Source of the DNA: Candidatus Hydrogenedens sp.
Lineage (GTDB): Bacteria > Hydrogenedentota > Hydrogenedentia > Hydrogenedentales > Hydrogenedentaceae
NCBI GenBank assembly: GCA_049968235.1
Contig: JBMFRC010000022.1
Span: 1-54,313 of the forward strand
Direction of reading: 5' to 3'
Length of the DNA: 54,313 nucleotides
In this document: positions 2,273 to 53,671 of the stretch, piece after piece
Numbering within the stretch: position 1 is the stretch's first letter
Layout of the letters: each line of letters starts with the position of its first letter
The notes under the pieces: model-generated
What the model was told of the DNA's origin: nothing
Databases searched by the model: none
The model's input: the letters and a program-made list of their open reading frames with translations, nothing else
Made by a program: the position numbers and the translations under genes

Positions 2273-2908
2273 TTACTGTCCTTTATCCCGTTGGGGTATA
2301 TTTTCCGAAGGGGGTGTTGCTTTGCGGTCGAGAAATTCCGCAATTGTGCGGTCATAACGGGATGTGCAGAAAAAAGCTTCCTGTGCGAGGCGATAACGGG
2401 TTACGAAAGAGACACAGCCATCATGAGCCCGCATTTCGTGCATGACAAGTGGGTAGTAAATTCTATCCACGACGACGGTAACATATCGGAAATTTTTGGC
2501 AGCGGAACGAATCATGGTTATACCGCCGATGTCAATCTGGTCGAACAATTCATCTACTGAACCTGCGGATTGTTCAATAATTCGTGGTATGGGTTTAGGA
2601 TTCACCACGACGAGGTCTATTTCTGGGAAATGGTATTGTTGCATTTGTTCCAGGTGTAGTTTGTTATCACGCAAGGCAAGCAGTCCAGCGTGTATTTTCG
2701 GGTGTAATGTTTTGAGCCTTCCGCCGAGTATTTCAGGGATACCTGTGTATTCTCCAATATATATAGAGGGAATACCATGTGCCTGTAATAACTCATTTGT
2801 GCCGACAGTTGCAATTATTTCCACATGATATTCGTGCAAAAATTTTGCAAATTCAATCAGTTCGCTTTTGTCGTAACAACTGATGACCGCTCTTTTTATC
2901 TTTTGCAT
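2273..2908 (-). CDS. purH: IMP cyclohydrolase domain (PurH N-terminal MGS-like domain) as a stand-alone protein. The ORF could start at the GTG at 2962, but the ATG at 2908 has an AGGAGA RBS.
   Basis: VISCYDKS...VGTNELL...GGRLKTLHPKIHAGLL...VVVNPKP...IDIGGITMIRSAAKNF is collinear with the PurH IMPCH domain. The ORF ends roughly where the AICARFT domain would begin, and purD starts 46 bp downstream. Confidence 0.75.
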   Translation of the reverse strand: MQKIKRAVISCYDKSELIEFAKFLHEYHVEIIATVGTNELLQAHGIPSIYIGEYTGIPEILGGRLKTLHPKIHAGLLALRDNKLHLEQMQQYHFPEIDLVVVNPKPIPRIIEQSAGSVDELFDQIDIGGITMIRSAAKNFRYVTVVVDRIYYPLVMHEMRAHDGCVSFVTRYRLAQEAFFCTSRYDRTIAEFLDRKATPPSENIPQRDKGQ

Positions 2909-3039
2909 GGGTTTCTCCTGAGACATTGGTTTTATGTTTGTATTTGTATGAGATAATTGCACTCATTGCAAAAGCCCGGAACTATATATAAATTTTTTAT
3001 AAGATACATTTTAACATAAAGTTCAGGTTCTTTTTGCTG

Positions 3040-9379: not shown

Positions 9380-9836
9380 AAAAATACCCTTTCACTTTTC
9401 ACAAATTTTATGATACCACAAATCATGTTTTATATATCCCTCTTCCCCACATCCTCTTTGAATAATAACTTATATATTTTTTATCCTCATTATTAAACAC
9501 GAACAGAGTGTTAATATCAGATTTTTCTGATTTGGGGGATAGGGAGTATGTCGCCCAAGAGTTTATAAGATTAAGATGTCGGGATTTGTCTCCGATAGAA
9601 TTTTGTTCACTGTATCTGTCGAGGGGAATATTTAAATACCTCCGTAAAATATTTTTACAATCCTGAGATAAAACGGTTATGACCCGTGAATTGAAAATTA
9701 TTTTCAGATAGTCTTTGGATGATAGGAATACTATTTTACTGTCTTATTTTTTTTCACCCATTTTATTTTGTATATCACATTGGTTTAAGTTGTTTTGTTT
9801 GTAAGAAAAGGTAACAGTGTCTATGGCTCAAATAAT

Positions 9837-22422: not shown

Positions 22423-22456
22423 GTTTTCCCAAAACAATTTTATAAGTTTGCGAGCC

Positions 22457-22700
22457 CTGAACAAGTGGTTTAAGAGGCAGGGTATAAATTATACATGTTT
22501 TTACGAGATAGAATCCCGATGAGAAATTAAAATACAAGAGTCCGTGTCTCACTTTTCATATTTTATTTGCTATTTTCTGTTCGTTTTTCTATCTTTTTGT
22601 TATCTATACATATCACTCATTATACATCCGTTTTAATTATATACAGTCATTAACAAGAAATGATATGCTCCTCTCTCTATCCCTCTCCGTGTTCTCCGTG
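22457..22700 (+). repeat. dispersed ~250-bp intergenic repeat, copy A
   Basis: About 80% identical by eye to 31122..31377. Shared blocks include GTATAAATTATACAT, TTACGAGATARAATCC, ATGAGAAATTAAAATACAAGAG, CGTTTTTCTATCTTTTTGTTATCTAT and ATTAACAAGAAATGATAT.CTCCTCTCTCT. Confidence 0.8.
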
Positions 22701-29897: not shown

Positions 29898-30970
29898 ATA
29901 TTAACGAATTAAGAAAAAAAATCGATGAGATTGACCAGAAAATCATTAGCCTTCTAAATGAACGAGCCTACTGTGCTCAAGAGATAGGCAAAATTAAAAG
30001 TGGTTCACAGGCACCTTTTTATGTACCCGAACGCGAAAAATCCGTAATAGAAAAATTACTACAATCCAATCACGGTCCATTAGATGAACGGGCTATCCGT
30101 TCCATCTATCGCGAAATCATGAGTGCCATCCGTTCCCTTGAAAAACCGACCAGCGTTGCCTTCTTAGGACCTCGCGATACTTTCAGTCACATGGCTGCCT
30201 TACGTGTATTTGGCACCTCCGCCGAATATCATCCATTGCCTTCTTTTGCAGATGTATTTACAGAAGTAGAACGACATCGCATCGATTACGGAGTTGTTCC
30301 TATTGAAAGTTCAACGGGTGGTTCTGTAAGTGATACTCTGGATTTATTTATCAATTCAGAATTGAAGATTATTAATGAAGTTCTCCTCCAAATTTCTCAG
30401 AACCTCCTTGCAAAATGTCCCATTGACCAGGTTCGTCGGGTATATTCAAAAGATAATGCTCTACTTCAATGCAGAAATTGGCTTCGGGCAAATCTCCCCG
30501 GTGTTGAATTAATTGAGGTATCCAGTACCGCAGAAGCCGCAAGACGCGCTTCTCAAGAACCCAATACTTCTGCTATTGCCAGCAAATTAGCCGCAGAAAC
30601 TTATAATCTCGAAATTATCGCAGAACATATTGAAGACATTCCGCATAACTATACAAGGTTTGTCGTTTTAGGACATCAAATTGTAGAGCCTACCGGAGAT
30701 GACAAAACATCGCTCCTTTTATCGGCAAAAGATAAACCCGGAGCCTTGTTCAACCTTCTTATGCCCTTTGCTGAATTTAACATTAATTTAACCCGTATTG
30801 AATCCCGTCCGTCTCGCCAAAAACCCTGGGAATATGTATTCTTCATTGATTTTCTCGGGCATATCAAAGATGAAAAGGTTCACCAAGTTATTGAGGATGT
30901 TAGTGACCGAGCAAGAGACCTGAAAATATTAGGTTCATTCCCTCGTGCTACTATTGAACTCGAAGCATAG
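29894..30970 (+). CDS. pheA: bifunctional chorismate mutase / prephenate dehydratase (P-protein)
   Basis: CM domain ELRKKIDEIDQKIISLLNERA, PDT domain, and C-terminal ACT domain (ESRPS). Confidence 0.9.
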   Translation: MNINELRKKIDEIDQKIISLLNERAYCAQEIGKIKSGSQAPFYVPEREKSVIEKLLQSNHGPLDERAIRSIYREIMSAIRSLEKPTSVAFLGPRDTFSHMAALRVFGTSAEYHPLPSFADVFTEVERHRIDYGVVPIESSTGGSVSDTLDLFINSELKIINEVLLQISQNLLAKCPIDQVRRVYSKDNALLQCRNWLRANLPGVELIEVSSTAEAARRASQEPNTSAIASKLAAETYNLEIIAEHIEDIPHNYTRFVVLGHQIVEPTGDDKTSLLLSAKDKPGALFNLLMPFAEFNINLTRIESRPSRQKPWEYVFFIDFLGHIKDEKVHQVIEDVSDRARDLKILGSFPRATIELEA

Positions 30971-31121
30971 AGATACATAAAAATTGATTATTAATGAGTA
31001 TCGAGGAATAAGTTCTATATCTTCATCTTATTTACACAAACCCATTGACTAACACTATCTTATTTATTTTATCAGACTAATAAAAAAAGACTTGACAAAT
31101 ACTTTATTTTGTATGAGACCT

Positions 31122-31377
31122 CTGAACGATTGTATAAGAGGTCGGAGTATAAATTATACATTTTCTTACGAGATAAAATCCTAATGAGAAATTAAAATAC
31201 AAGAGCCTATATCTCTCTTTTTACCCATTTTATTTGTTATTTTACATCCGTTTTTCTATCTTTTTGTTATCTATGCATATTTTCCCTTTTGCTCTCTTAA
31301 TTTCCCATACATCCTCTTCAAATCATATGCAGTTATTAACAAGAAATGATATACTCCTCTCTCTGTGTCCTCTGTTG
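31122..31377 (+). repeat. dispersed ~250-bp intergenic repeat, copy B (same orientation as copy A)
   Basis: See copy A. It ends in a 16-bp-stem hairpin (31361..31411). Confidence 0.8.
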
Positions 31378-31960
31378 TAAAAAGAATATAATCACCACAG
31401 AGAACACAGAGAAAACATCATATACTGTTTAACAATGCATAAAATAGTAAGGATGAAAGCCTTTGCTCTCCCCAGTTCGTTTTATATCCTTCGCTCTCTA
31501 TCCACCTCTGCTCAAATTCCTCAATGGTATCACCTCTTGCATCTGTCTCTAAAAAATATCTGTAACGGGTCGGTTTCTGATGAGGCATCTCGTAATCTAT
31601 AAAAAAAACTTGTTTGCTCTATCTTTTCGGTATACAGCAATGACCTTTCTTCATTTTTAGTTTTTCCTTGTTTTGTTATTTAACCCACAATAGTTCTGCT
31701 GTATTTATACTACTTCTCTCTATTCTCGTTTCATTTTTTCTCTCACCCCTTCTCGTATATAATTTATATCATCTAACTCGGATGACTTATTCAAAACTCT
31801 CATGTATATTTTCATGCTCAGGTAAAATATGCTTATTTGTATTTATTCCTTTTATAAAACCTATTAATAATAAGCCTTTGTTAGATACAGAGGCTATGGT
31901 CTGAAAGATAAGCGAAGAATGTCACAGTAAATACTGCGTATTTTAGAAAACATCCTGAGA

Positions 31961-32062
31961 ATTTGGATAAAACAAAAAAGCAAGGATAGTAATAACTTCC
32001 TTCAACCACACCTTCAAGGGTGCCTTATTTGGATAAGGCAAAAAAGCAAGGATAGTAATAAC
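31961..32062 (+). repeat. CRISPR-like mini-array: two 36-bp direct repeats (2 mismatches) separated by a unique 30-bp spacer
   Basis: R1 31961..31996 ATTTGGATAAAACAAAAAAGCAAGGATAGTAATAAC; R2 32027..32062 ATTTGGATAAGGCAAAAAAGCAAGGATAGTAATAAC; spacer TTCCTTCAACCACACCTTCAAGGGTGCCTT is not repeated. Confidence 0.3.
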
Positions 32063-32286
32063 ATTTCGCGTAAATGCATTTGCAAAGCATGAGTTTCCAA
32101 AAAAAAAAAAGAGTTTATGTATGTGAGGGAAATACTGTTTAGTTGAGAAGAATATGGAAAGAACCGTGGAGTAATCTGGGTAGATCTAGAGACTGAACAA
32201 GTAATCGGGGCAGGTCCCTATAAGCAAGATGTGCAATAGTTTATGATGTTATATCTTTTGTCTGTAATGAATAGAGAAATTCAGAA

Positions 32287-35815: not shown

Positions 35816-37293
35816 ATGCCTAAAAAGAATCTCTACTTTCCCTTTTATTACATGTTGCTTGTTGCTTTTATTTTCTTGTCTCTACCTTCATTCACGGAAG
35901 AACTTGAAATTAATCTTGTTTATACAAATGACATCCACGATAATATCCGGCCCTCATATTTTGGTACGGGGGGGGGTTACCTTATATCGCTGGTTTTGTA
36001 AAACAATTAAGAGCAGAAAAACCTAATGTTATATTAGTTGATGCTGGTGATTTGACAGATAAAGGTGATATGGTCGCAGATGTGACTAATGGTGAAATTA
36101 TGTATCAGGCAGTTGAAAAAATGGGTTATCAGGTAATGGTTATAGGCAATCATGACATCAAAAAAGGGATTGAACAACTGTGTAAGTTAAAACAATTAGC
36201 CCCATCTGTGGAAATTGTAACCACAGATTATAAGGAAGGATTGGACAATTGTTTCAAACCCTGGGTGATAAAAAAAATAGGAGATTTTCCTATCGGTTTT
36301 ATAGGGATTATCAATTTCCGAATTGAAGAAATAAAATCTGCTATTGAAGGGATGAAACGCAATGAATGTCATTTTTTTATAGCCTTATGCCACTTAGGAA
36401 GCGGTACTTGCAAAGCCATATCCAAAAAAATTCCTGAAATATCAATATTCGTTTCCGGACATACACATGAGGTATTAAACGAAGCGATAGTATGTCCAGA
36501 AACAAATGCTATTATTGTTCAATCCGGTTCGCGTGCCATACGGGTTGGATATTTAAGAATAATTGTTGATACAAAAGAACAGAAAAATAAGAGTTATGAG
36601 AACAAATTGGTTGAGTTAAGACATGATTTAATTAAACCAGATGAAGATTTATTAAACTGGATATATGCTGAAGAGAAACGGGTATGCCCCATCGCTTCCG
36701 AATTTTTAATTGACAATAAAAAAACGATTAATGCCAGCCAAATTGCGATTCTTACATCGCTTGCTATTAAAGAAAAGACCCATGTAGATATTGCATTTTG
36801 CCCACCAAAACTGATTCGCAATGTTTTCCCACCAACCCAATTAGATTATAACGCTGTGTTCCTTACTGCAGGACATCGGGCAATAGAACAAGAGTGGATT
36901 CAAATCACATTAAAGGGCAAGCAGATTGAACAATATCTTAAAGATATATTAAAAAATCACTGGGATATGACCGAATGTGCAGGTATGGAATTCCATTATG
37001 AGAATAATACTTTACGAGACACTAATTTAAATGGTGATAAAGACTACAAAATTGCTATCTCAAAAACAGAATTTCAGAACCAATTATTACGGTCTTTACG
37101 AATGAGTGGTGAAAATAATATAGAAGATATTAAAAATGGAGCCATAGAATATGATTTTACATACATGGATGCTTTATCAGAATTTTTGAAAAGAATAAAA
37201 GAAAGTAGTTTAACCCTGGATGAGTATGTAGCCAGCATGAATATAAAAAACAGTGATATAAATAACCAAAATAATGATGAAATAGAAAATTAG
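35816..37293 (+). pseudogene. secreted 5'-nucleotidase / calcineurin-like metallophosphoesterase interrupted by a frameshift in a G9 homopolymer (35968..35976). It is tracked as two ORFs, 35816..36001 and 36052..37293.
   Basis: ORF1: signal peptide + LVYTNDIHDNI (metallophosphoesterase motif I) ending in ...YFGTGGG. The -1 frame continues without stops as GGGLPYIAGFVKQLRAEKPNVILVDAGDL...VIGNHD (motifs II and III). Adding one G or deleting two Gs restores a single ORF. Confidence 0.7.
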
Positions 37294-48126: not shown

Positions 48127-49497
48127 TCACCCGTAAATAATGCCTAATGGTGGGTATTCCTTCCATTTTCCTCGCGTAAAGTCCGGAAAATCTTGAGGTG
48201 TACCGCGTTGGGCGACAGACCGTTCACTTAATTCTGAAACCACACTCCATGAGGCCGCATCGTAAACATTCAAATCTGTAGGTAAACCTTTGCGGAGACA
48301 TTCAATTAAACGGAAATCCTCAATGAAATCCATTCCACCATGTCCGGCTCCTTTGGCAGAATCCTGCATCGCTTTCCATAAAGGATGTTCCCACTCATTT
48401 GTATAATTCTCCAGAGGCTCAAATTTCTCCTCTTTTGTTAACCCTTCTACGAAAATACGCGGAGGATAATCCATAATGACGCCTTTTGTTCCCTGTACCG
48501 TATTAATTCGGCTGTAAGGACGAGGCAAATTTGTGTCATGCACGATGTATATTGTACATCCATTATAAGTTTTTATAATGCTTAAGTTCACATCCCCTAA
48601 CACATATTTTTCATTTCTACGGGGGTCATCCTCAGGTAGCGTTTTTTGGTATTCTTGGAGGCCTCGAGATTTGCTACTAACAGAAACTAAATACTCAAAC
48701 TGATCTCCGCGATTGATGTTCATATATTGAGCTACGGGTCCCAATCCATGTGTGGGATATAGATTTCCGTTTCGTTTCATCGAATGAGCACGACGCCAGA
48801 GCCCTTCTCCGTCCTTGCTGAATTTTACGCCTCTTAAATCATGTAAATAACCGCATTCTCCATGAATAATCTCGCCTAGCAGTCCCTTGCGGACCATGTG
48901 GAGCATCATTAATTCCGTTCGATTATAGCAACAATTCTCCATCATAACGCAGTGTTTCTTATACTTCTCTGCAGTTTCGACCAATTGCCAGCATTCCTCC
49001 AATGTTACTGCTGCAGGCACTTCCGTCGCTGCATGTTTACCATTTTCCATCGCAGAAACACACACAGGAACATGCCATTCCCATGGTGTTGCTGTGTAAA
49101 CTAAATCTAATTCTTCTGTTTCACACATTTTTTTAAAATCCAATTCCCCATTTGAATAACATGTGGGTTCTGGCTGTCCCGCATCTACAACCATCTTTTT
49201 TACGCGTTCTACTTTTTCAGGAACAATATCACAAACAGCTTTCAGTTGCACACCCTCTATCTTCAATAAATTCCTTACATGATTGGTGCCCATACCTCCT
49301 ACACCAACAAATCCGATGCGAACCGTTTTCATTGGAGGAGCGGAGAAGAGTTCTGCTGGGGCAGGGGCGGTGCGAATGGAATTTGTTGAAGGTTGATTTT
49401 GTGCAGAGCCTTTCATCGCAAATATCATTGATGCGACACCAGAAAGCGATAAAAACGACCTCCGCGAGAATTCAAAATGTGTGGTATCTTTTTTCAT
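48127..49497 (-). CDS. Gfo/Idh/MocA-family NAD-dependent oxidoreductase with twin-arginine signal (GH109-like)
   Basis: Tat motif SRRSFLSLSGVASM; Rossmann motif IGFVGVGGMGTNHV; family-typical EKP and C-terminal domain. Confidence 0.8.
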   Translation of the reverse strand: MKKDTTHFEFSRRSFLSLSGVASMIFAMKGSAQNQPSTNSIRTAPAPAELFSAPPMKTVRIGFVGVGGMGTNHVRNLLKIEGVQLKAVCDIVPEKVERVKKMVVDAGQPEPTCYSNGELDFKKMCETEELDLVYTATPWEWHVPVCVSAMENGKHAATEVPAAVTLEECWQLVETAEKYKKHCVMMENCCYNRTELMMLHMVRKGLLGEIIHGECGYLHDLRGVKFSKDGEGLWRRAHSMKRNGNLYPTHGLGPVAQYMNINRGDQFEYLVSVSSKSRGLQEYQKTLPEDDPRRNEKYVLGDVNLSIIKTYNGCTIYIVHDTNLPRPYSRINTVQGTKGVIMDYPPRIFVEGLTKEEKFEPLENYTNEWEHPLWKAMQDSAKGAGHGGMDFIEDFRLIECLRKGLPTDLNVYDAASWSVVSELSERSVAQRGTPQDFPDFTRGKWKEYPPLGIIYG

Positions 49498-49619
49498 ATT
49501 CCTTGTTCCTTAAAATTTAGTTTAATGATGTTTTTGCTTATTTGTTTGTGAAATTAATAATATACTGTCATAAACATTAAACTTTATTTAAATACAAAAA
49601 ATCAAAAAAGGAAGGAATT

Positions 49620-50036
49620 ATGGATGCTTACTTATTTATTTGCCTCGGAACAAGAGATGTTCAAATAGAAAATTCCATTAATTTAGAAGGGGATTTGCAT
49701 AAAACTTTAGAAGAGTGTAAATATCCATGGAAAGAGAAAGATAAAAACTTTCGTGGGTTAAATGTTCGCAAATTGGGACATTGGTTATATGATAATTTTG
49801 ATAAAGTTAAAGAAATAATTAGAATACCATTAAGTGAACCATTTTTAAATCACATAGAAAATGAAAGTCATACTATAAAACAGATTTATCTTATCGCTAC
49901 GGACCAACAAAAAACAATTGAAGAAAGTGCAAAGGAACATTTAGAAAGAGATACCTGTATAATAGCAGATTTCTTAAAAGAAAAATTTTTCCCGTATTTC
50001 TTTACTAAAAAAAGATGCTTACCCTTCCCGATATAG
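49620..50036 (+). CDS. N-terminal part of a CARF-HEPN (Csm6/Csx1-like) protein. It is out of frame with the next ORF at an A7 tract (50007..50013).
   Basis: The first strand MDAYLFICLGTRDV resembles the CARF beta1 plus G[TS] motif. A 22-bp overlap with the next ORF and insertion of one A fuse the two frames (…FFTKK-K-MLTLPD…). Confidence 0.5.
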   Translation: MDAYLFICLGTRDVQIENSINLEGDLHKTLEECKYPWKEKDKNFRGLNVRKLGHWLYDNFDKVKEIIRIPLSEPFLNHIENESHTIKQIYLIATDQQKTIEESAKEHLERDTCIIADFLKEKFFPYFFTKKRCLPFPI

Positions 50037-51112
50037 TTACTATTACTCTCAATGATCCGCCCAATAGCTATGATTTAATGATAAAAGAATTTAGTGATAA
50101 GTTAGGGAAAATTTATGGAGATAATGAAAATCAATATTTAGTCTGTGCAGAAATTACAGGAGGGACCCCTCACATTAATACATCTATTATTTTAAATTGT
50201 ATCAAATTTTTTAGAAACAAAGTTACATTTATCTATAAACCTGAAAATTCAAACGACATTAGGTCTCTTAATATTGCCAAATATATATTAAGTTCATATG
50301 AACATGAAAATTTAAAACAACTTGTTGAAAGATATGATTTTGATGCAATTGTGCAGAATAAAAATTATTCAGACACAATCGGAAAGTTATCTTTATCTGC
50401 GTGCTATAGAGGAAACTTTGATTTTTTTTTTTATAAGAAAGAAATAGACAAAATGTATGATAATGTACCTAAAAATATGCTTGAGATATTAAGAAATGAT
50501 GCGTCTAAATTATGCGAAAAAGAACCCAATTCAATATTTAATGAACTTTACTGGAATACAGTAATTATGTGGAAGCGAGATGAGTGTGCAAATTTTATAG
50601 GAAGAGTCTGGAGGATTATGGAAGCATCTCTTCAATATTCATTGCTTGAAATTGTAGGATGTACATGGGATGAAATGAAGGAAAACTCAAATAAAAAAAC
50701 TTTTGAAAATAAATTTAGAAAGTGGGCAGAAGAAAATAAAGAGTTTTTAAAATATTTAGAAAAACAACAACATATTGCTCCTAATATGCCTATGCTTATT
50801 GCTTGTATCGATTTTCTTTCAGAGAGGGGACCGAACAGGGATAAATATAAAAATATTCAAAAGTGGGCGCAAAAACTGAGATCTTTTGCAACGATAAGAA
50901 ATAAATCAATTATAGCACATGGTTTTTGTGACATATCTAAGGAGATGATTAAGAATACCCTTGAAGATAAAGAAGAGGATATACTTATTATTGTTAGGTC
51001 ACTGATTGAAAGTGTAGGGATTCAATTGTCGGAGGAGAATCCATTTGATATTTTTAAAGAACTTTTAATAAATATTAATGAACAATATTTGAATGAAACT
51101 CTATATGTTTAA
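50015..51112 (+). CDS. C-terminal part of a CARF-HEPN (Csm6/Csx1-like) protein: CARF core motif plus C-terminal HEPN Rx4-6H motif
   Basis: LVCAEITGGTPHINTSIIL resembles the CARF D/N-x-T-G-G-T-K motif. ATIRNKSIIAHGF contains R-x6-H (HEPN Rx4-6H) about 65 aa from the C-terminus, as in Csm6. This gene looks visibly AT-richer than its neighbours. Confidence 0.5.
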   Translation: MLTLPDIVTITLNDPPNSYDLMIKEFSDKLGKIYGDNENQYLVCAEITGGTPHINTSIILNCIKFFRNKVTFIYKPENSNDIRSLNIAKYILSSYEHENLKQLVERYDFDAIVQNKNYSDTIGKLSLSACYRGNFDFFFYKKEIDKMYDNVPKNMLEILRNDASKLCEKEPNSIFNELYWNTVIMWKRDECANFIGRVWRIMEASLQYSLLEIVGCTWDEMKENSNKKTFENKFRKWAEENKEFLKYLEKQQHIAPNMPMLIACIDFLSERGPNRDKYKNIQKWAQKLRSFATIRNKSIIAHGFCDISKEMIKNTLEDKEEDILIIVRSLIESVGIQLSEENPFDIFKELLININEQYLNETLYV

Positions 51113-52064
51113 CAATCTTAGTTTTACAGTTCAGCGGGTTAGTTTTTTAGCGGAGGAGCCCTTGTTGGTGCCAGAATATAAGGGTTCGATGATTCGTGGT
51201 GCATTGGGTCATGCCTTAAAAAAAGTTTCCTGTGCGTTGAAGAGGTTTACCTGCCCGGAGTGTCCTATTCGTGAAAAATGTGCTTATAGTATGTGCTTTG
51301 AGACTCCTATCCCAAAATCATCAGAGATTATGAAAAAATATCCTAAAGCACCTCATCCCTATATTCTCGAACCCCCTATTGAGTCAAAAGAGCGTTATGA
51401 ACCCGGCGAGGTATTTGAGTGTAATTTAACCCTTGTTGGTAGAGCAAAGGATTTCTTACCGCATTTTATCTATGCACTTGATGTGATGGCTGAGGAAGGT
51501 TTCGGTAGAGGACGAGGAAAATCTAAACTTATATCCCTTGATTATCTTACTCCTGAAAACAAATGGAACGCCCTATATTCGCCTGAGGCAAATGAATTCT
51601 TAGGGGAACCGTATTCCTTCAAGATACAGGATATTTTGCAAAAGAAAGAGCAACTTTTGTTGGATAAGAGAATAGAAATACAATATATAACACCTACACG
51701 ATTAGTTATAGACGGGAATCTCCATGATACGGGAGAAATAGCATATATCCTACCTGGATTACTTCGTAGACTTACTTTGTTGCAATACTTCTTTTGTGGT
51801 GGTTATTTAGAAAAGGATGTGATTTCTCTAGTAGAAGCGGGGAAAAATCTACAACCTTTACATTCTGCATTCCAGTGGCAGGATTGGGTCCGTTATTCAT
51901 CTCGTCAGGATAGAAAAGTAATTATGGGAGGTTTTATAGTGTCGATAGTATATGAGCAAATTCCTTCTGAAATCCTTGAAGTTCTTTGTTGGGGTGAAAG
52001 GTTACATATTGGCAAAGGAACTGTGTTCGGATTAGGTAAATATAATCTTCTGCCTGCAAACTGA
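51093..52064 (+). CDS. Cas6-like RAMP-superfamily protein (solitary, no CRISPR array nearby) with a Cys cluster
   Basis: N-terminal LLVPEYKGSMIRGALGHALKK parallels the Cas6 N-terminal strand-helix (e.g. PfCas6 FKVPYNHQYYLQGLIYNAIKS). The extreme C-terminal glycine-rich loop HIGKGTVFGLGKY follows GxGxxxxxGxG. There is a CxxC...C...C cluster (CPECPIREKCAYSMC). It overlaps the upstream stop by 8-20 bp and sits 4 bp before the next gene. Confidence 0.55.
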   Translation: MKLYMFNNLSFTVQRVSFLAEEPLLVPEYKGSMIRGALGHALKKVSCALKRFTCPECPIREKCAYSMCFETPIPKSSEIMKKYPKAPHPYILEPPIESKERYEPGEVFECNLTLVGRAKDFLPHFIYALDVMAEEGFGRGRGKSKLISLDYLTPENKWNALYSPEANEFLGEPYSFKIQDILQKKEQLLLDKRIEIQYITPTRLVIDGNLHDTGEIAYILPGLLRRLTLLQYFFCGGYLEKDVISLVEAGKNLQPLHSAFQWQDWVRYSSRQDRKVIMGGFIVSIVYEQIPSEILEVLCWGERLHIGKGTVFGLGKYNLLPAN

Positions 52065-52068
52065 CAAC

Positions 52069-53232
52069 ATGTGCGATACGATTGTTTTTGTAGATAGTCA
52101 AAAAGTTTTATTTGCAAAGAATTCGGACCGTGAGGTAAACGAATCTCAGGTTCTTCTCTGGCAACCGCGTAAAAATTACACGAAAAATGAATTACTACAA
52201 TGCACATATATAACCATTCCCCAGGTTCGTGAGACCTATGCCATTTTAGTATGTAAACCTACATGGATGTGGGGTGCTGAAATGGGGACGAATGAGTTTG
52301 GCGTTACTATTGGGAATGAAGCGGTATTTACCAACCAACCTTATGCTAAAACAGGTTTGACAGGGATGGACCTGATTCGTCTTGCTTTAGAACGGTCCAT
52401 CACCGCAAAACAAGCATGTGAAACAATTATTCAACTTATAGAAATTCATGGTCAGGGTGGAAATTGTGGATACAAAAAAACGACCTACTATCACAACAGT
52501 TATATAATCGCAGATACCCAGGAAGCTTATGTTCTTGAAACCGCTGACAAGAAATATGCTGTGGAAAAAGTTTATGGGTGTCGTGCTATTTCCAATGGCT
52601 TGACTATTAAAGATTTTAAGGAAAAATACAGCAGTCAAATTAAAAGTTACTTTACTCGGTGTAATCAACGAAGAAATGCTATGGAACAGTGCAGACAAAA
52701 AACTCTGACCGTATCGGATATGTTTCAACTACTTCGTTCCCATAAGAATGAAAACTATTATCCAGAATATCATTGGTTTCACGGAGGGATGGATGCACCC
52801 TGTATGCATGCGGGCGGACTCTTCCTTAATTATCAGACTACTGCGTCATGGGTTGCAGAACTTACTCCTAAACATTGTGCCTATTGGGTTACTGCAACTT
52901 CAACTCCATGTATCAGTCTATTCAAACCTGTAAATATATCACAACCTTTAAGTAATAAATTTTGTAATACAAAAGGGGAACTTAAAGATTCTTTCTGGTG
53001 GAAACATGAAAAATTCCAACGACTGGTTATGAAAAATCCTTCACAAACCTTTCCTGTTTTTATTGATAAGAAAAATCAGATGGAAAACGAATGGCTTCAA
53101 AAACCCCCAGTCTCTGAAACTGCTTTCCTCACACATGAACAATTACTTTCTCATTGGACCGCACAGATACTTAAACTTAACATACAGGATACCCGTCCTA
53201 TATGGACACGTTACTTCTGGAATAAAATTTAG
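52069..53232 (+). CDS. secernin-like peptidase (MEROPS C69 family, Ntn-hydrolase with Cys2 nucleophile)
   Basis: MCDTIVFV...VLFAKNSDREVNE...PTWMWGAEMGTNEFGVTIGNEAVFT...GMDLIRLALERSITAKQACETIIQLIEIHGQGGN is collinear with eukaryotic secernin / C69 dipeptidase signatures, as far as I recall them (WLWGAEMGANEHGV...; GMDLVRL...HGQGGN). Confidence 0.7.
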   Translation: MCDTIVFVDSQKVLFAKNSDREVNESQVLLWQPRKNYTKNELLQCTYITIPQVRETYAILVCKPTWMWGAEMGTNEFGVTIGNEAVFTNQPYAKTGLTGMDLIRLALERSITAKQACETIIQLIEIHGQGGNCGYKKTTYYHNSYIIADTQEAYVLETADKKYAVEKVYGCRAISNGLTIKDFKEKYSSQIKSYFTRCNQRRNAMEQCRQKTLTVSDMFQLLRSHKNENYYPEYHWFHGGMDAPCMHAGGLFLNYQTTASWVAELTPKHCAYWVTATSTPCISLFKPVNISQPLSNKFCNTKGELKDSFWWKHEKFQRLVMKNPSQTFPVFIDKKNQMENEWLQKPPVSETAFLTHEQLLSHWTAQILKLNIQDTRPIWTRYFWNKI

Positions 53233-53671
53233 AACAACTTCTACATAAAAAGCCGAAGCAAAAAAATAAACAGTAAGATAACAATTCCATCCTTTTACTA
53301 ACCAATCAGTGCAAAATTTACTCATATTCATAAGTATGATTTACCTTTGAGTACCCCGTTGAGGTGCTATACTATTCACATAATAAAAATTAGATATAAG
53401 ATAAAAATTCATGATTCTAATCCTATTAAAACTTGAATAATCTTTATTCTCAATACTTTATTTTGCAGAGTAATGTTTTAACTTGGAAACTAGTTTCTCC
53501 CCAGGGGACATGGAGATGCCCCGGAGTTTCATCCAGATAACCCCACCAGTTCATATAGACCTATAAGTTTTCCTAATATGTAGATTTATCTTTGAAAACA
53601 TAAAGTTTATAATAATTATATTATTAATTTATATAATATATTAATATTATTATATCAATTTCCTTTATTTA

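What the first reader, a model, noticed from the sequence alone, without database searches (positions are those of the whole stretch)
50001..50036. A7-tract frameshift splits the CARF-HEPN gene
The 138-aa ORF (CARF N-terminus) and the 365-aa ORF (CARF core + HEPN) overlap by 22 bp in different frames. Insertion of a single A into the run AAAAAAA (50007..50013) yields one continuous ~500-aa protein, the normal size for Csm6/Csx1. This could be a sequencing or assembly homopolymer error, a genuine inactivating mutation, or -1 ribosomal/transcriptional slippage on the A run. A toxic HEPN RNase kept off by a frameshift is plausible.

A second homopolymer frameshift (G9) occurs elsewhere in the window. 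That raises the possibility of systematic homopolymer errors in the assembly.
Basis: seen in the sequence. Interest (0 to 1): 0.5.

Follow-up and report, generated by a model that had tools for sequence, protein, structure and literature searches.

The report
Frameshift-broken Csm6/Csx1 defence gene
A CRISPR helper RNase gene (Csm6/Csx1 type) in an uncultured Candidatus Hydrogenedens bacterium is cut in two by a one-base frameshift at a run of seven A's; the break is most likely a real, recent inactivating mutation, which is an ordinary way for a defence gene to die.

Summary
ORF 49620..50036 (138 aa) and ORF 50015..51112 (365 aa) overlap by 22 nt in different frames, with an A7 run at 50007..50013. 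They are collinear pieces of one CARF-HEPN (Csm6/Csx1-type) protein.

All eight close homologues (45-66% identity, 503-520 aa) are single ORFs. So are nearly all of the best 150 relatives in a 1.8-billion-protein library. The homologues looked up sit in the same neighbourhood: HtrA / GH109 / csx1 / cas6 / Ntn-hydrolase.

The window is a whole contig of a Ca. Hydrogenedens MAG. Two further MAGs, about 99.9% identical but carrying SNPs, have the same A7. One of them has a second csx1 frameshift (T11 to T12).

39 other homopolymers of 7 nt or more in the window's coding regions keep the frame, nine of them 8-nt runs. Pervasive homopolymer error is therefore unlikely.

The second split gene (G9, UshA-like) is intact with G7 in one sister MAG. 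In the other it carries an extra 1-nt deletion.

I found no signs of programmed recoding: the run is too short, there is no downstream RNA structure, and the split is not conserved.

Verdict: a genuine, recent pseudogenising frameshift. An assembly artefact or a reversible switch is not excluded without reads. Interest is low.

In passing I found a small CRISPR array at 31961..32062 whose spacer content differs between strains.

The parts
49620..50036 (+). csx1/csm6 fragment 1 (138 aa). It holds CARF strands beta1 (LGTRD loop) and beta2 plus the inserted helices. It has a purine-rich SD-like element (AAGGAAGGA) just upstream and ends at TAG 50034-50036.
   Evidence: PADLOC CARF_HEPN PDLC01795, E 2e-13. 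(model: E2-8, E85-94, H113-130). (matches profile positions 1-133 only).
50007..50013 (+). A7 run, the most likely site of the frame-changing indel. A8 or A5 would restore one ORF.
   Evidence: The run is identical (A7) in two sister MAGs.
50009..50026 (+). The only interval in which the frame change can lie. It is bounded by the TAA in ORF2's frame (50006-50008) and by the invariant Pro codon already read in ORF2's frame (50027-50029). It falls in a poorly conserved loop between helix 113-130 and strand 138-144 of the CARF fold.
50015..51112 (+). csx1/csm6 fragment 2 (365 aa). It holds CARF strands beta3-beta5 with the GGT loop, then the all-helical HEPN domain. There is no SD-like sequence before its ATG.
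   Evidence: Pfam Csm6 HEPN PF09670, 35 bits, above cut-off. (PADLOC Csx1, E 4e-49)..
50150..50170 (+). E-I-T-G-G-T-P loop after CARF strand beta4. All seven residues are invariant in the nine-sequence alignment. From general knowledge of CARF domains this is the ligand-binding loop.
50422..50432 (+). T11 run inside the coding sequence (D-F-F-F-Y). Orthologues with the NFDFFN motif have T7-AA-TT (Asn) here. The run is T12 in sister MAG3, which gives a second frameshift (140 + 219 aa).
50897..50920 (+). HEPN catalytic motif R-N-K-S-I-I-A-H (R-X6-H), intact.
   Evidence: R427, N428, H434 invariant. Sequence read.
51105..52064 (+). cas6 (319 aa), intact. Its ATG overlaps the csx1 stop (ATGTTTAA), as in the orthologues.
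   Evidence: PADLOC Cas6, E 1e-86.. (319-320 aa orthologues overlapping or abutting the csx1 stop).
52069..53232 (+). Ntn-hydrolase-like gene (387 aa, starts M-C-D-T; weak AAT / C45 / C69 matches). It follows cas6 by 4 nt and is conserved after cas6 in every orthologous locus whose contig extends that far.
31961..32062 (-). Mini CRISPR array: 36-nt repeat, 30-nt spacer, degenerate terminal repeat. Sister MAG3 has two more spacers at the leader end.
   Evidence: (D9).
35816..37293 (+). Comparator: a UshA-like metallophosphoesterase split at G9 (35968..35976). It is intact (491 aa) with G7 in MAG3. In MAG2 it has G9 plus an extra 1-nt deletion at 36528.

Best explanation
This is a genuine DNA-level frameshift that recently inactivated a lineage-conserved Csm6/Csx1-type CARF-HEPN gene in this Candidatus Hydrogenedens population.

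Shown:
- The gene is one ORF of 503-520 aa in all relatives. Here it is interrupted within 50009..50026, at or next to an A7 run.
- The break lies in the loop between a helix and strand beta3 of the CARF fold, so neither piece has a complete sensor domain.
- The same lesion is present in three near-identical assemblies, and one of them has acquired a second frameshift in the same gene.

Inferred:
- Ribosomes starting at the SD-led ATG 49620 stop at TAG 50034.
- The 365-aa remainder has no SD. It would be made only by inefficient re-initiation or by rare slippage on the A run, at roughly the per-cent level at most.
- Cyclic-oligoadenylate-activated RNase output is therefore lost or nearly lost.
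- Translation of cas6, whose start overlaps the csx1 stop, may also be weakened.

The lesion arose by replication slippage in the A run. It was either A8 to A7 or A5 to A7. The latter matches the linker length of the nearest homologues and the +2 change seen at the G run of the other split gene.
For: One gene in two pieces:
- The fusion matches Csx1 profile positions 20-435 of 440 (E 4e-59).
- The AF2 model of the fusion (pLDDT 84) has a five-stranded CARF followed by a helical HEPN. The break lies between H113-130 and E138-144.
- The best solved-structure matches are full-length Csm6 proteins (6TUG, 5FSH; probability 1.0).

Orthologues are intact:
- Eight homologues of 503-520 aa cover 99-100% of the fusion. 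The six looked up lie in syntenic loci.
- In the 1.84-billion-protein library, the only representatives that divide the profile at position about 134 are the window's own two ORFs.

The lesion is reproducible:
- MAG2 (GCA_049971155.1, L005) and MAG3 (GCA_049969095.1, L006) carry A7 while differing from the window by SNPs.

Homopolymer error is not pervasive:
- 33 runs of 7 nt or more lie in intact ORFs, and 6 more are in frame within the two split genes. Nine of these are 8-nt runs.
- All 41 between-MAG comparisons of 7-8-nt runs agree.
- About 40 other genes are full length by Pfam.

The decay pattern fits pseudogenes:
- All three coding indels found between the MAGs fall in the two already split genes. 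They are T12 in csx1 of MAG3, G7/G9, and a TT-to-T deletion in the UshA-like gene. None falls in the remaining ~33 kb compared, most of it intact coding sequence.
- T11 itself was created by substitutions at a mostly conserved Asn codon.
Against: - No reads are available and the sequencing platform is unknown.
A platform-specific systematic error at this site would therefore repeat in all three.
- Apart from the frameshift the gene is pristine. It has no other stop, the catalytic R-X6-H and GGT motifs are intact, and there is no rate acceleration against P0002 (relative-rate tests not significant). That fits an artefact or a functional recoding as well as a very recent mutation.
- The MAGs do disagree at the three longest runs (A12/13, T11/12, G7/9). 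Homopolymer length is therefore either biologically unstable or imperfectly assembled.
- SNPs between the MAGs are mostly non-synonymous, about 15 of 19 coding SNPs, and include a nonsense codon in pheA of MAG3. Some assembly noise cannot be ruled out.
Confidence: 0.65

Rival explanations
1. Assembly or sequencing artefact. The true genome has A8 (or A5) and a single intact 497-aa (496-aa) gene, and the consensus mis-called the homopolymer in the same way in all three assemblies.
For: - The gene is otherwise intact with all conserved motifs.
- Both split genes in the window break at homopolymers.
- The MAGs differ at the three longest runs.
- SNPs between the MAGs look close to random in coding effect.
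Against: - The same A7 is present in three assemblies that differ by SNPs.
- 39 other coding runs of 7 nt or more are in frame, nine of them 8-nt runs.
- Runs of 7-8 nt agree in 41 of 41 between-MAG comparisons.
- The sister-MAG contigs are only 1.7-5 kb long. By inference this is typical of short-read assemblies, where 7-nt runs are reliable.
- The G-run difference is 2 nt, and one further indel is not in a homopolymer. Neither is a typical single-base homopolymer mis-call.
Confidence: 0.1
2. Reversible ON/OFF switch (contingency locus). Replication slippage at the A run, and at T11, toggles csx1 between broken and intact states in the population. This would hedge the cost of a collateral RNase against its benefit. 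The three assemblies happen to show the OFF majority.
For: - Homopolymer length differs between about 99.9%-identical strains at T11/T12 within csx1, and at G7 (ON) / G9 (OFF) in the UshA-like gene.
- The two split genes carry 2.7 runs of 7 nt or more per kb, against 0.7 per kb elsewhere.
- The CRISPR array still differs in spacer content between strains.
Against: - The A run itself is invariant (A7 in 3 of 3) and no ON allele of csx1 was seen.
- By general knowledge, A7 is only modestly mutable compared with classical tracts.
- MAG3 needs two simultaneous reversions.
- The orthologues have no long run at this site, so the site was not selected as a switch.
Confidence: 0.13
3. Recoding. Full-length protein is made from the A7 allele in one of two ways. 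RNA polymerase may add an A during transcription, or tRNA-Lys may slip -1 on A_AAA (codon 50010-50012). Either would give low, possibly useful, expression of a toxic RNase.
For: - An in-phase A_AAA slippery tetramer exists (ACU AAA AAA AGA).
- A -1 shift there yields exactly the 497-aa fusion.
- The gene is otherwise intact.
- Frameshifted genes rescued by slippage on A runs are documented (PMC1088944).
Against: - Documented productive slippage runs are 9 nt, perhaps 8 (PMC1088944). This one is 7.
- The in-phase heptamer is U_AAA_AAA, not a canonical X_XXY_YYZ.
- There is no downstream structure (MFE -6.5 kcal/mol, z = +0.68), and no internal SD-like stimulator is visible in the sequence.
- The two-ORF layout is absent from every orthologue.
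- MAG3 has a second frameshift that this mechanism would not repair.
Confidence: 0.07
4. The two fragments, or ORF2 alone, are functional as they stand. This would be either a two-piece CARF-HEPN or an N-terminally truncated, deregulated HEPN RNase.
For: ORF2 keeps the GGT loop and the whole HEPN domain.
Against: - ORF2 lacks strands beta1 and beta2 of the CARF sheet.
- It has no SD-like sequence before its ATG.
- No relative among the best 150 library representatives is organised this way.
Confidence: 0.03

Closest known systems
Csm6/Csx1 family CARF-HEPN ribonucleases of type III CRISPR-Cas (solved examples: Enterococcus italicus Csm6 6TUG, Thermus thermophilus Csm6 5FSH)
   Same: - N-terminal CARF Rossmann-like domain with a conserved T-G-G-T loop.
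- C-terminal helical HEPN domain with R-X6-H.
- Length of about 500 aa.
- cas6 next door.
- Full-length fold match at probability 1.0.
   Different: - Only 13-16% identity to solved structures. There is no PDB sequence hit and no NCBIfam hit.
- The Pfam CARF match is below cut-off.
- About 75 residues of extra helices lie between beta1 and beta2.
- It is not adjacent to cas10 or other effector genes, here or in the orthologous loci. It sits at a fixed housekeeping site (HtrA / GH109).
- In this window it is split by a frameshift.
Frameshift pseudogenes produced by homopolymer indels (ordinary gene decay)
   Same: - A single-frame break at a mononucleotide run relative to intact orthologues.
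- The break is shared by close strains.
- One strain has a secondary lesion.
   Different: The break is very recent. There is no other stop or loss of motifs and no measurable rate acceleration.
Genes rescued by transcriptional slippage on poly(A)/poly(T) runs (Thermus dnaX A9, IS elements, endosymbiont pseudogene rescue; Baranov et al. 2005, PMC1088944)
   Same: An A run sits exactly at the junction of two overlapping ORFs, and one added A restores the product.
   Different: - The run is 7 nt rather than 8-9 or more.
- It is not conserved in homologues.
- No experimental data exist.
Phase-variable contingency genes with intragenic homopolymer tracts (poly-G/poly-C tracts of Neisseria, Haemophilus and Campylobacter; general knowledge)
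   Same: Tract-length differences between near-identical strains switch ORFs on or off. This is seen here for G7/G9 and T11/T12.
   Different: - The A7 tract of the finding is not polymorphic in the three assemblies.
- No ON allele of csx1 is known.

Membership tests
Csm6/Csx1 CARF-HEPN ribonuclease | N-terminal CARF (Rossmann-like) sensor domain | tested here: met
   Met for the conceptual fusion only. PADLOC Csx1/CARF_HEPN profiles are matched end to end. The AF2 model has strands 2-8, 85-94, 138-144, 173-178 and 202-206. Foldseek finds Csm6 structures. The Pfam CARF model scores 20.8-21.5 bits, below its 27.5 cut-off.
Csm6/Csx1 CARF-HEPN ribonuclease | C-terminal HEPN domain with R-X4-6-H motif | tested here: met
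   Pfam PF09670 scores 35.3 bits, above its cut-off of 27. RNKSIIAH lies at 50897..50920, and its R and H are invariant in the family alignment.
Csm6/Csx1 CARF-HEPN ribonuclease | Both domains on one polypeptide | tested here: not met
   The gene is split into 138 + 365 aa in the window and in two sister MAGs. It is a single chain in all homologues.
Csm6/Csx1 CARF-HEPN ribonuclease | Genomic linkage to a type III (cas10) effector module | tested here: not met
   - The ORFs of the 54-kb window scanned against Pfam/PADLOC contain no cas10, csm or cmr genes.
- None lies within 10 kb or less in the four orthologous loci with gene calls.
- Only cas6 is adjacent, and a mini array lies 18 kb away.
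- The rest of the genome could not be searched.
Csm6/Csx1 CARF-HEPN ribonuclease | Cyclic-oligoadenylate-activated RNase activity | not testable with these tools
   This needs biochemistry.
Frameshift pseudogene | Reading frame broken relative to intact orthologues, and reproducible in independent assemblies | tested here: met
Frameshift pseudogene | Signs of relaxed constraint (further lesions, faster evolution) | tested here: inconclusive
   - There is a second frameshift in MAG3, and T11 was created by substitution.
- Relative-rate tests are not significant, and unique changes at invariant sites number 5 against 0-19 in the homologues.
Programmed -1 ribosomal frameshift | In-phase slippery heptamer X_XXY_YYZ | tested here: not met
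   The 0-frame codons are ACU AAA AAA AGA. The in-phase heptamers are U_AAA_AAA and A_AAA_AGA. Only the tetramer A_AAA is slippery.
Programmed -1 ribosomal frameshift | Stimulatory element (downstream hairpin or pseudoknot, or upstream SD-like sequence) | tested here: not met
   Region 50000-50100 folds at -6.5 kcal/mol, z = +0.68, and 149 of 200 shuffles fold as well. No GGAGG-like sequence lies upstream.
Programmed -1 ribosomal frameshift | Two-ORF arrangement conserved among orthologues | tested here: not met
   All orthologues are single ORFs with no long A run at the site.
Transcriptional-slippage recoding | A/T run long enough for productive slippage (9, possibly 8; PMC1088944) | tested here: not met
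   The run is 7 nt in all three assemblies.
Phase-variable contingency locus | Tract length polymorphic among close strains, with both ON and OFF alleles | tested here: not met
   - The A run is A7 in 3 of 3 assemblies, and no intact csx1 allele exists in the collections.
- The feature is met for the UshA-like gene (G7 ON / G9 OFF).
- It is partly met at T11/T12.

The most novel reading that the evidence does not exclude
csx1 in this lineage may be a contingency gene. Its intragenic homopolymers (A7, T11) would act as reversible switches that turn a costly collateral RNase off and on within a population whose CRISPR array is still turning over spacers. This would be phase variation of a type III ancillary effector, in parallel with the G7/G9 switching of a secreted nucleotidase.
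Probability: 0.1. Interest if true: 0.55.

Novelty: new member of a known kind. Interest (0 to 1): 0.22.

Why it matters
On its own it matters little. Frameshifted defence genes are common, and this one adds an example in a poorly known phylum (Hydrogenedentes).

It is useful for annotation. The two 'hypothetical proteins' ACP5UA_12150 and ACP5UA_12155 are halves of one csm6/csx1 pseudogene.

The analysis also shows that the contig is not riddled with homopolymer errors, so other features of the window can be trusted.

The context is mildly more interesting.
- A csx1-cas6-Ntn-hydrolase operon is kept at one chromosomal site across Hydrogenedentes, with no effector genes nearby.
- A mini CRISPR array differs in spacers between strains that share the broken csx1. 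By inference, the loss of the ancillary nuclease has been tolerated.

Tried and rejected
- **Further alleles of the same species:** The exact A8 and A5 fusion proteins are not in the 15-billion-protein collection. Scans of genome contigs and metagenome contigs returned only the 45-66% orthologues.
- **Sequencing platform or publication:** Searches on Hydrogenedens plus CRISPR, and on the accession prefixes, found no paper.
- **Accelerated evolution of the broken gene:** Tajima-type relative-rate tests against P0002 with seven outgroups gave nothing consistent.
- **Frameshift-stimulating RNA structure:** None was found.
- **Sequence search of the PDB:** No Csm6/Csx1 hit appeared. A fold search was needed.
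- **Promoter or terminator scan of 49400-53400:** It found fewer promoter-like sites than in shuffles, so it is uninformative.
- **Protospacers for the three spacers in IMG/VR:** No exact match. No self-targets occur in the window or the fetched loci.
- **Rfam:** Only two tRNAs, and no CRISPR-repeat family.
- **My first repeat screen:** It listed the two-repeat array as family D9 and I passed over it. I recognised it only when the MAG3 comparison showed a 'scrambled' stretch there.
- **Considered and rejected:** I considered pervasive homopolymer under-calling, because both breaks need +1. The intact sister allele of the second gene is G7, two fewer than the window, and nine 8-nt runs are in frame.

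Full report
**Observation**

The window has an ATG-started ORF at 49620..50036 (138 aa) and a second at 50015..51112 (365 aa). The second is in the -1 frame relative to the first, and the two overlap by 22 nt. The run AAAAAAA occupies 50007..50013.

Adding one A gives an open 497-codon frame. Removing two A's gives 496 codons.

ORF2's frame carries a TAA at 50006-50008. The invariant proline of the 'LP(D/E)I' motif (50027-50029) is already read in ORF2's frame. The frame change must therefore lie in 50009..50026, where the A run is the only homopolymer longer than 3 nt.

**What the two ORFs are**

- ORF1 alone matches the N-terminal part of PADLOC CARF-HEPN/Csx1 profiles. ORF2 matches the remainder. 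The fusion matches Csx1 profile PDLC01509 over positions 20-435 of 440 in one stretch (198.8 bits).
- Pfam finds the Csm6 HEPN domain above its cut-off and the Csm6 CARF domain below it.
- An AlphaFold model of the fusion (nine-sequence alignment, mean pLDDT 84) has a five-stranded Rossmann-like CARF (strands 2-8, 85-94, 138-144, 173-178, 202-206) followed by an all-helical domain.
- The best solved-structure matches of the model are full-length Csm6 proteins (6TUG, 5FSH; probability 1.0; 13-16% identity).
- The frame break lies in the loop between helix 113-130 and strand 138-144. It therefore cuts through the sensor domain.
- The T-G-G-T loop (50150..50170) and the HEPN R-X6-H motif (50897..50920) are intact.

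**Relatives**

The window is a complete 54,313-nt contig of a Candidatus Hydrogenedens MAG, and the two ORFs carry locus tags ACP5UA_12150 and ACP5UA_12155.

- Eight homologues at 45-66% identity are all single proteins of 503-520 aa that cover 99-100% of the fusion.
- A profile search of 1.84 billion representative proteins finds 493 relatives at E of 1e-10 or better. Almost all of the best 150 are 440-540 aa. The only two that divide the profile at position about 134 are the window's own ORFs.
- The six homologues looked up lie in the same gene order: HtrA(-), GH109(-), csx1, cas6 (319-320 aa, start overlapping or abutting the csx1 stop), and an Ntn-hydrolase-like gene of about 389 aa. This order holds even at 45% identity.

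The single-ORF state is therefore ancestral, and the idea of two conserved separate genes is refuted.

**Is the frameshift real?**

Reads are not available, but two other deposited MAGs of the same population could be fetched.

- L005 (GCA_049971155.1, 'MAG2') is 99.91% identical over 2,338 nt. It has two SNPs, no gap, and A7.
- L006 (GCA_049969095.1, 'MAG3') is 99.8% identical and also has A7. It has T12 instead of T11 at 50422..50432, which splits ORF2 again into 140 + 219 aa.

Within the window, 33 homopolymers of 7 nt or more lie inside intact ORFs, and 6 more lie in frame within the two split genes. Nine of these are 8-nt runs. About 40 other genes, including dnaE (1,160 aa), PFOR (1,204 aa), clpA and uvrD, are full length by Pfam.

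Across 38 kb of between-MAG comparison, all 41 comparisons of 7-8-nt runs agree. Three of the five comparisons of runs of 9 nt or more disagree.

A systematic A8-to-A7 mis-call repeated in three assemblies is therefore improbable. It cannot be excluded without knowing the platform.

**The second split gene**

G9 at 35968..35976 divides a UshA-like secreted metallophosphoesterase.

- In MAG3 the same gene is intact (491 aa) with G7.
- In MAG2 it has G9 plus a further 1-nt deletion (TT to T at 36528) that is not in a long homopolymer.

All three coding indels seen between the MAGs fall in the two genes that are already broken. None falls in the remaining ~33 kb compared, most of it intact coding sequence. 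That is the pattern expected of genes drifting after inactivation.

**The ancestral state of the A run**

The four nearest homologues have 10 residues between the conserved 'P-Y' and the invariant proline. A5 would give 10 residues and A8 would give 11. A +2 expansion, as at the G run, is thus as plausible as a -1 contraction.

The T11 run is also new. Orthologues with the NFDFFN motif have T7-AA-TT, which encodes a mostly conserved Asn. Long A/T runs are normally selected against in coding sequence (PMC1088944).

**Recoding**

- The 0-frame reads ACU AAA AAA AGA. This contains an in-phase A_AAA tetramer but no canonical X_XXY_YYZ heptamer.
- The next 100 nt have no structure beyond shuffled controls (z = +0.68).
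- There is no upstream SD-like element.
- The arrangement is not conserved in any relative.
- Known productive transcriptional-slippage runs are 9, possibly 8, nt long (PMC1088944).
- Per-cent-level leakiness is possible (inference), but nothing indicates that it is selected. MAG3's second frameshift would not be repaired by it.

**Limits**

- The gene shows no other damage and no acceleration relative to P0002. The lesion is therefore recent, or not real, or tolerated.
- SNPs between the MAGs are mostly non-synonymous and include a nonsense codon in pheA of MAG3. This fits very recent divergence, but some assembly noise is possible.

**Context found in passing**

A mini CRISPR array lies on the minus strand at 31961..32062. 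It has a 36-nt repeat, one 30-nt spacer and a degenerate terminal repeat. MAG3 has two additional spacers at the leader end and shares the oldest one.

No cas1, cas2 or cas10 is in the window. The spacers have no exact match in IMG/VR.

**Verdict**

- The most likely cause is a genuine, recent inactivating indel (0.65).
- The rivals are a reversible switch (0.13), an artefact (0.10), recoding (0.07), and function as fragments (0.03).
- It is an ordinary kind of event in a divergent member of a known family, and interest is low.

Noticed in passing
window 31961..32062 (minus strand); L017 7579..7813: A small CRISPR array lies 18 kb from csx1-cas6, between pheA and queC. The repeat is GTTATTACTATCCTTGCTTTTTTGCCTTATCCAAAT (36 nt, unstructured). 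The window has one 30-nt spacer and a degenerate terminal repeat. Sister MAG3 has three spacers: two extra at the leader end, and the oldest shared with the window. There are no protospacer hits in IMG/VR and no self-targets.
   Followed up: partly
window 49620..53232; L001, L007, L008, L009, L012: The csx1 - cas6 - Ntn-hydrolase-like (M-C-D-T N-terminus, weak C45/C69/AAT matches) gene trio lies at the same chromosomal site, next to GH109 and HtrA, in every Hydrogenedentes relative examined (csx1 identity 45-66%). No CRISPR array or effector genes lie within 10 kb or less in the loci examined. L009 has two tandem csx1 paralogues (503 and 510 aa). A functional link between the hydrolase and the CARF/Cas6 genes is untested.
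   Followed up: partly
window 35816..37293 (G9 at 35968..35976): The UshA-like secreted metallophosphoesterase is split at a poly-G tract. The alleles are G9 (window and MAG2, broken; MAG2 also has an extra 1-nt deletion at 36528) and G7 (MAG3, intact, 491 aa). This could be a phase-variable surface or secreted enzyme, or a decaying gene.
   Followed up: partly
window 22432..22678 and 31097..31364: Two copies of an intergenic element of about 250 nt (75-91% identical in three collinear blocks) lie downstream of the M28 peptidase gene and downstream of pheA. A shorter related stretch lies at 9751..9786. It has no Rfam match and its function is unknown.
   Followed up: no
window 2273..2962 (minus strand): The purH-like ORF is only 229 aa. 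It has the MGS-like domain plus the first 62 of 311 positions of the AICARFT domain. purD follows 47 nt later, so there is no room for the rest of the gene. It is either a natural short form or a deletion.
   Followed up: no
window 30738..31428 versus L017: MAG3 carries a cluster of seven SNPs at the 3' end of pheA and just beyond it. They include W312* (pheA is 311 aa in MAG3, without its ACT domain). SNPs between the MAGs are mostly non-synonymous overall, about 15 of 19 coding SNPs.
   Followed up: partly
window 32099..32110: The A12 run (T12 on the array's strand) in the presumed CRISPR leader is A13 in MAG3.
   Followed up: no
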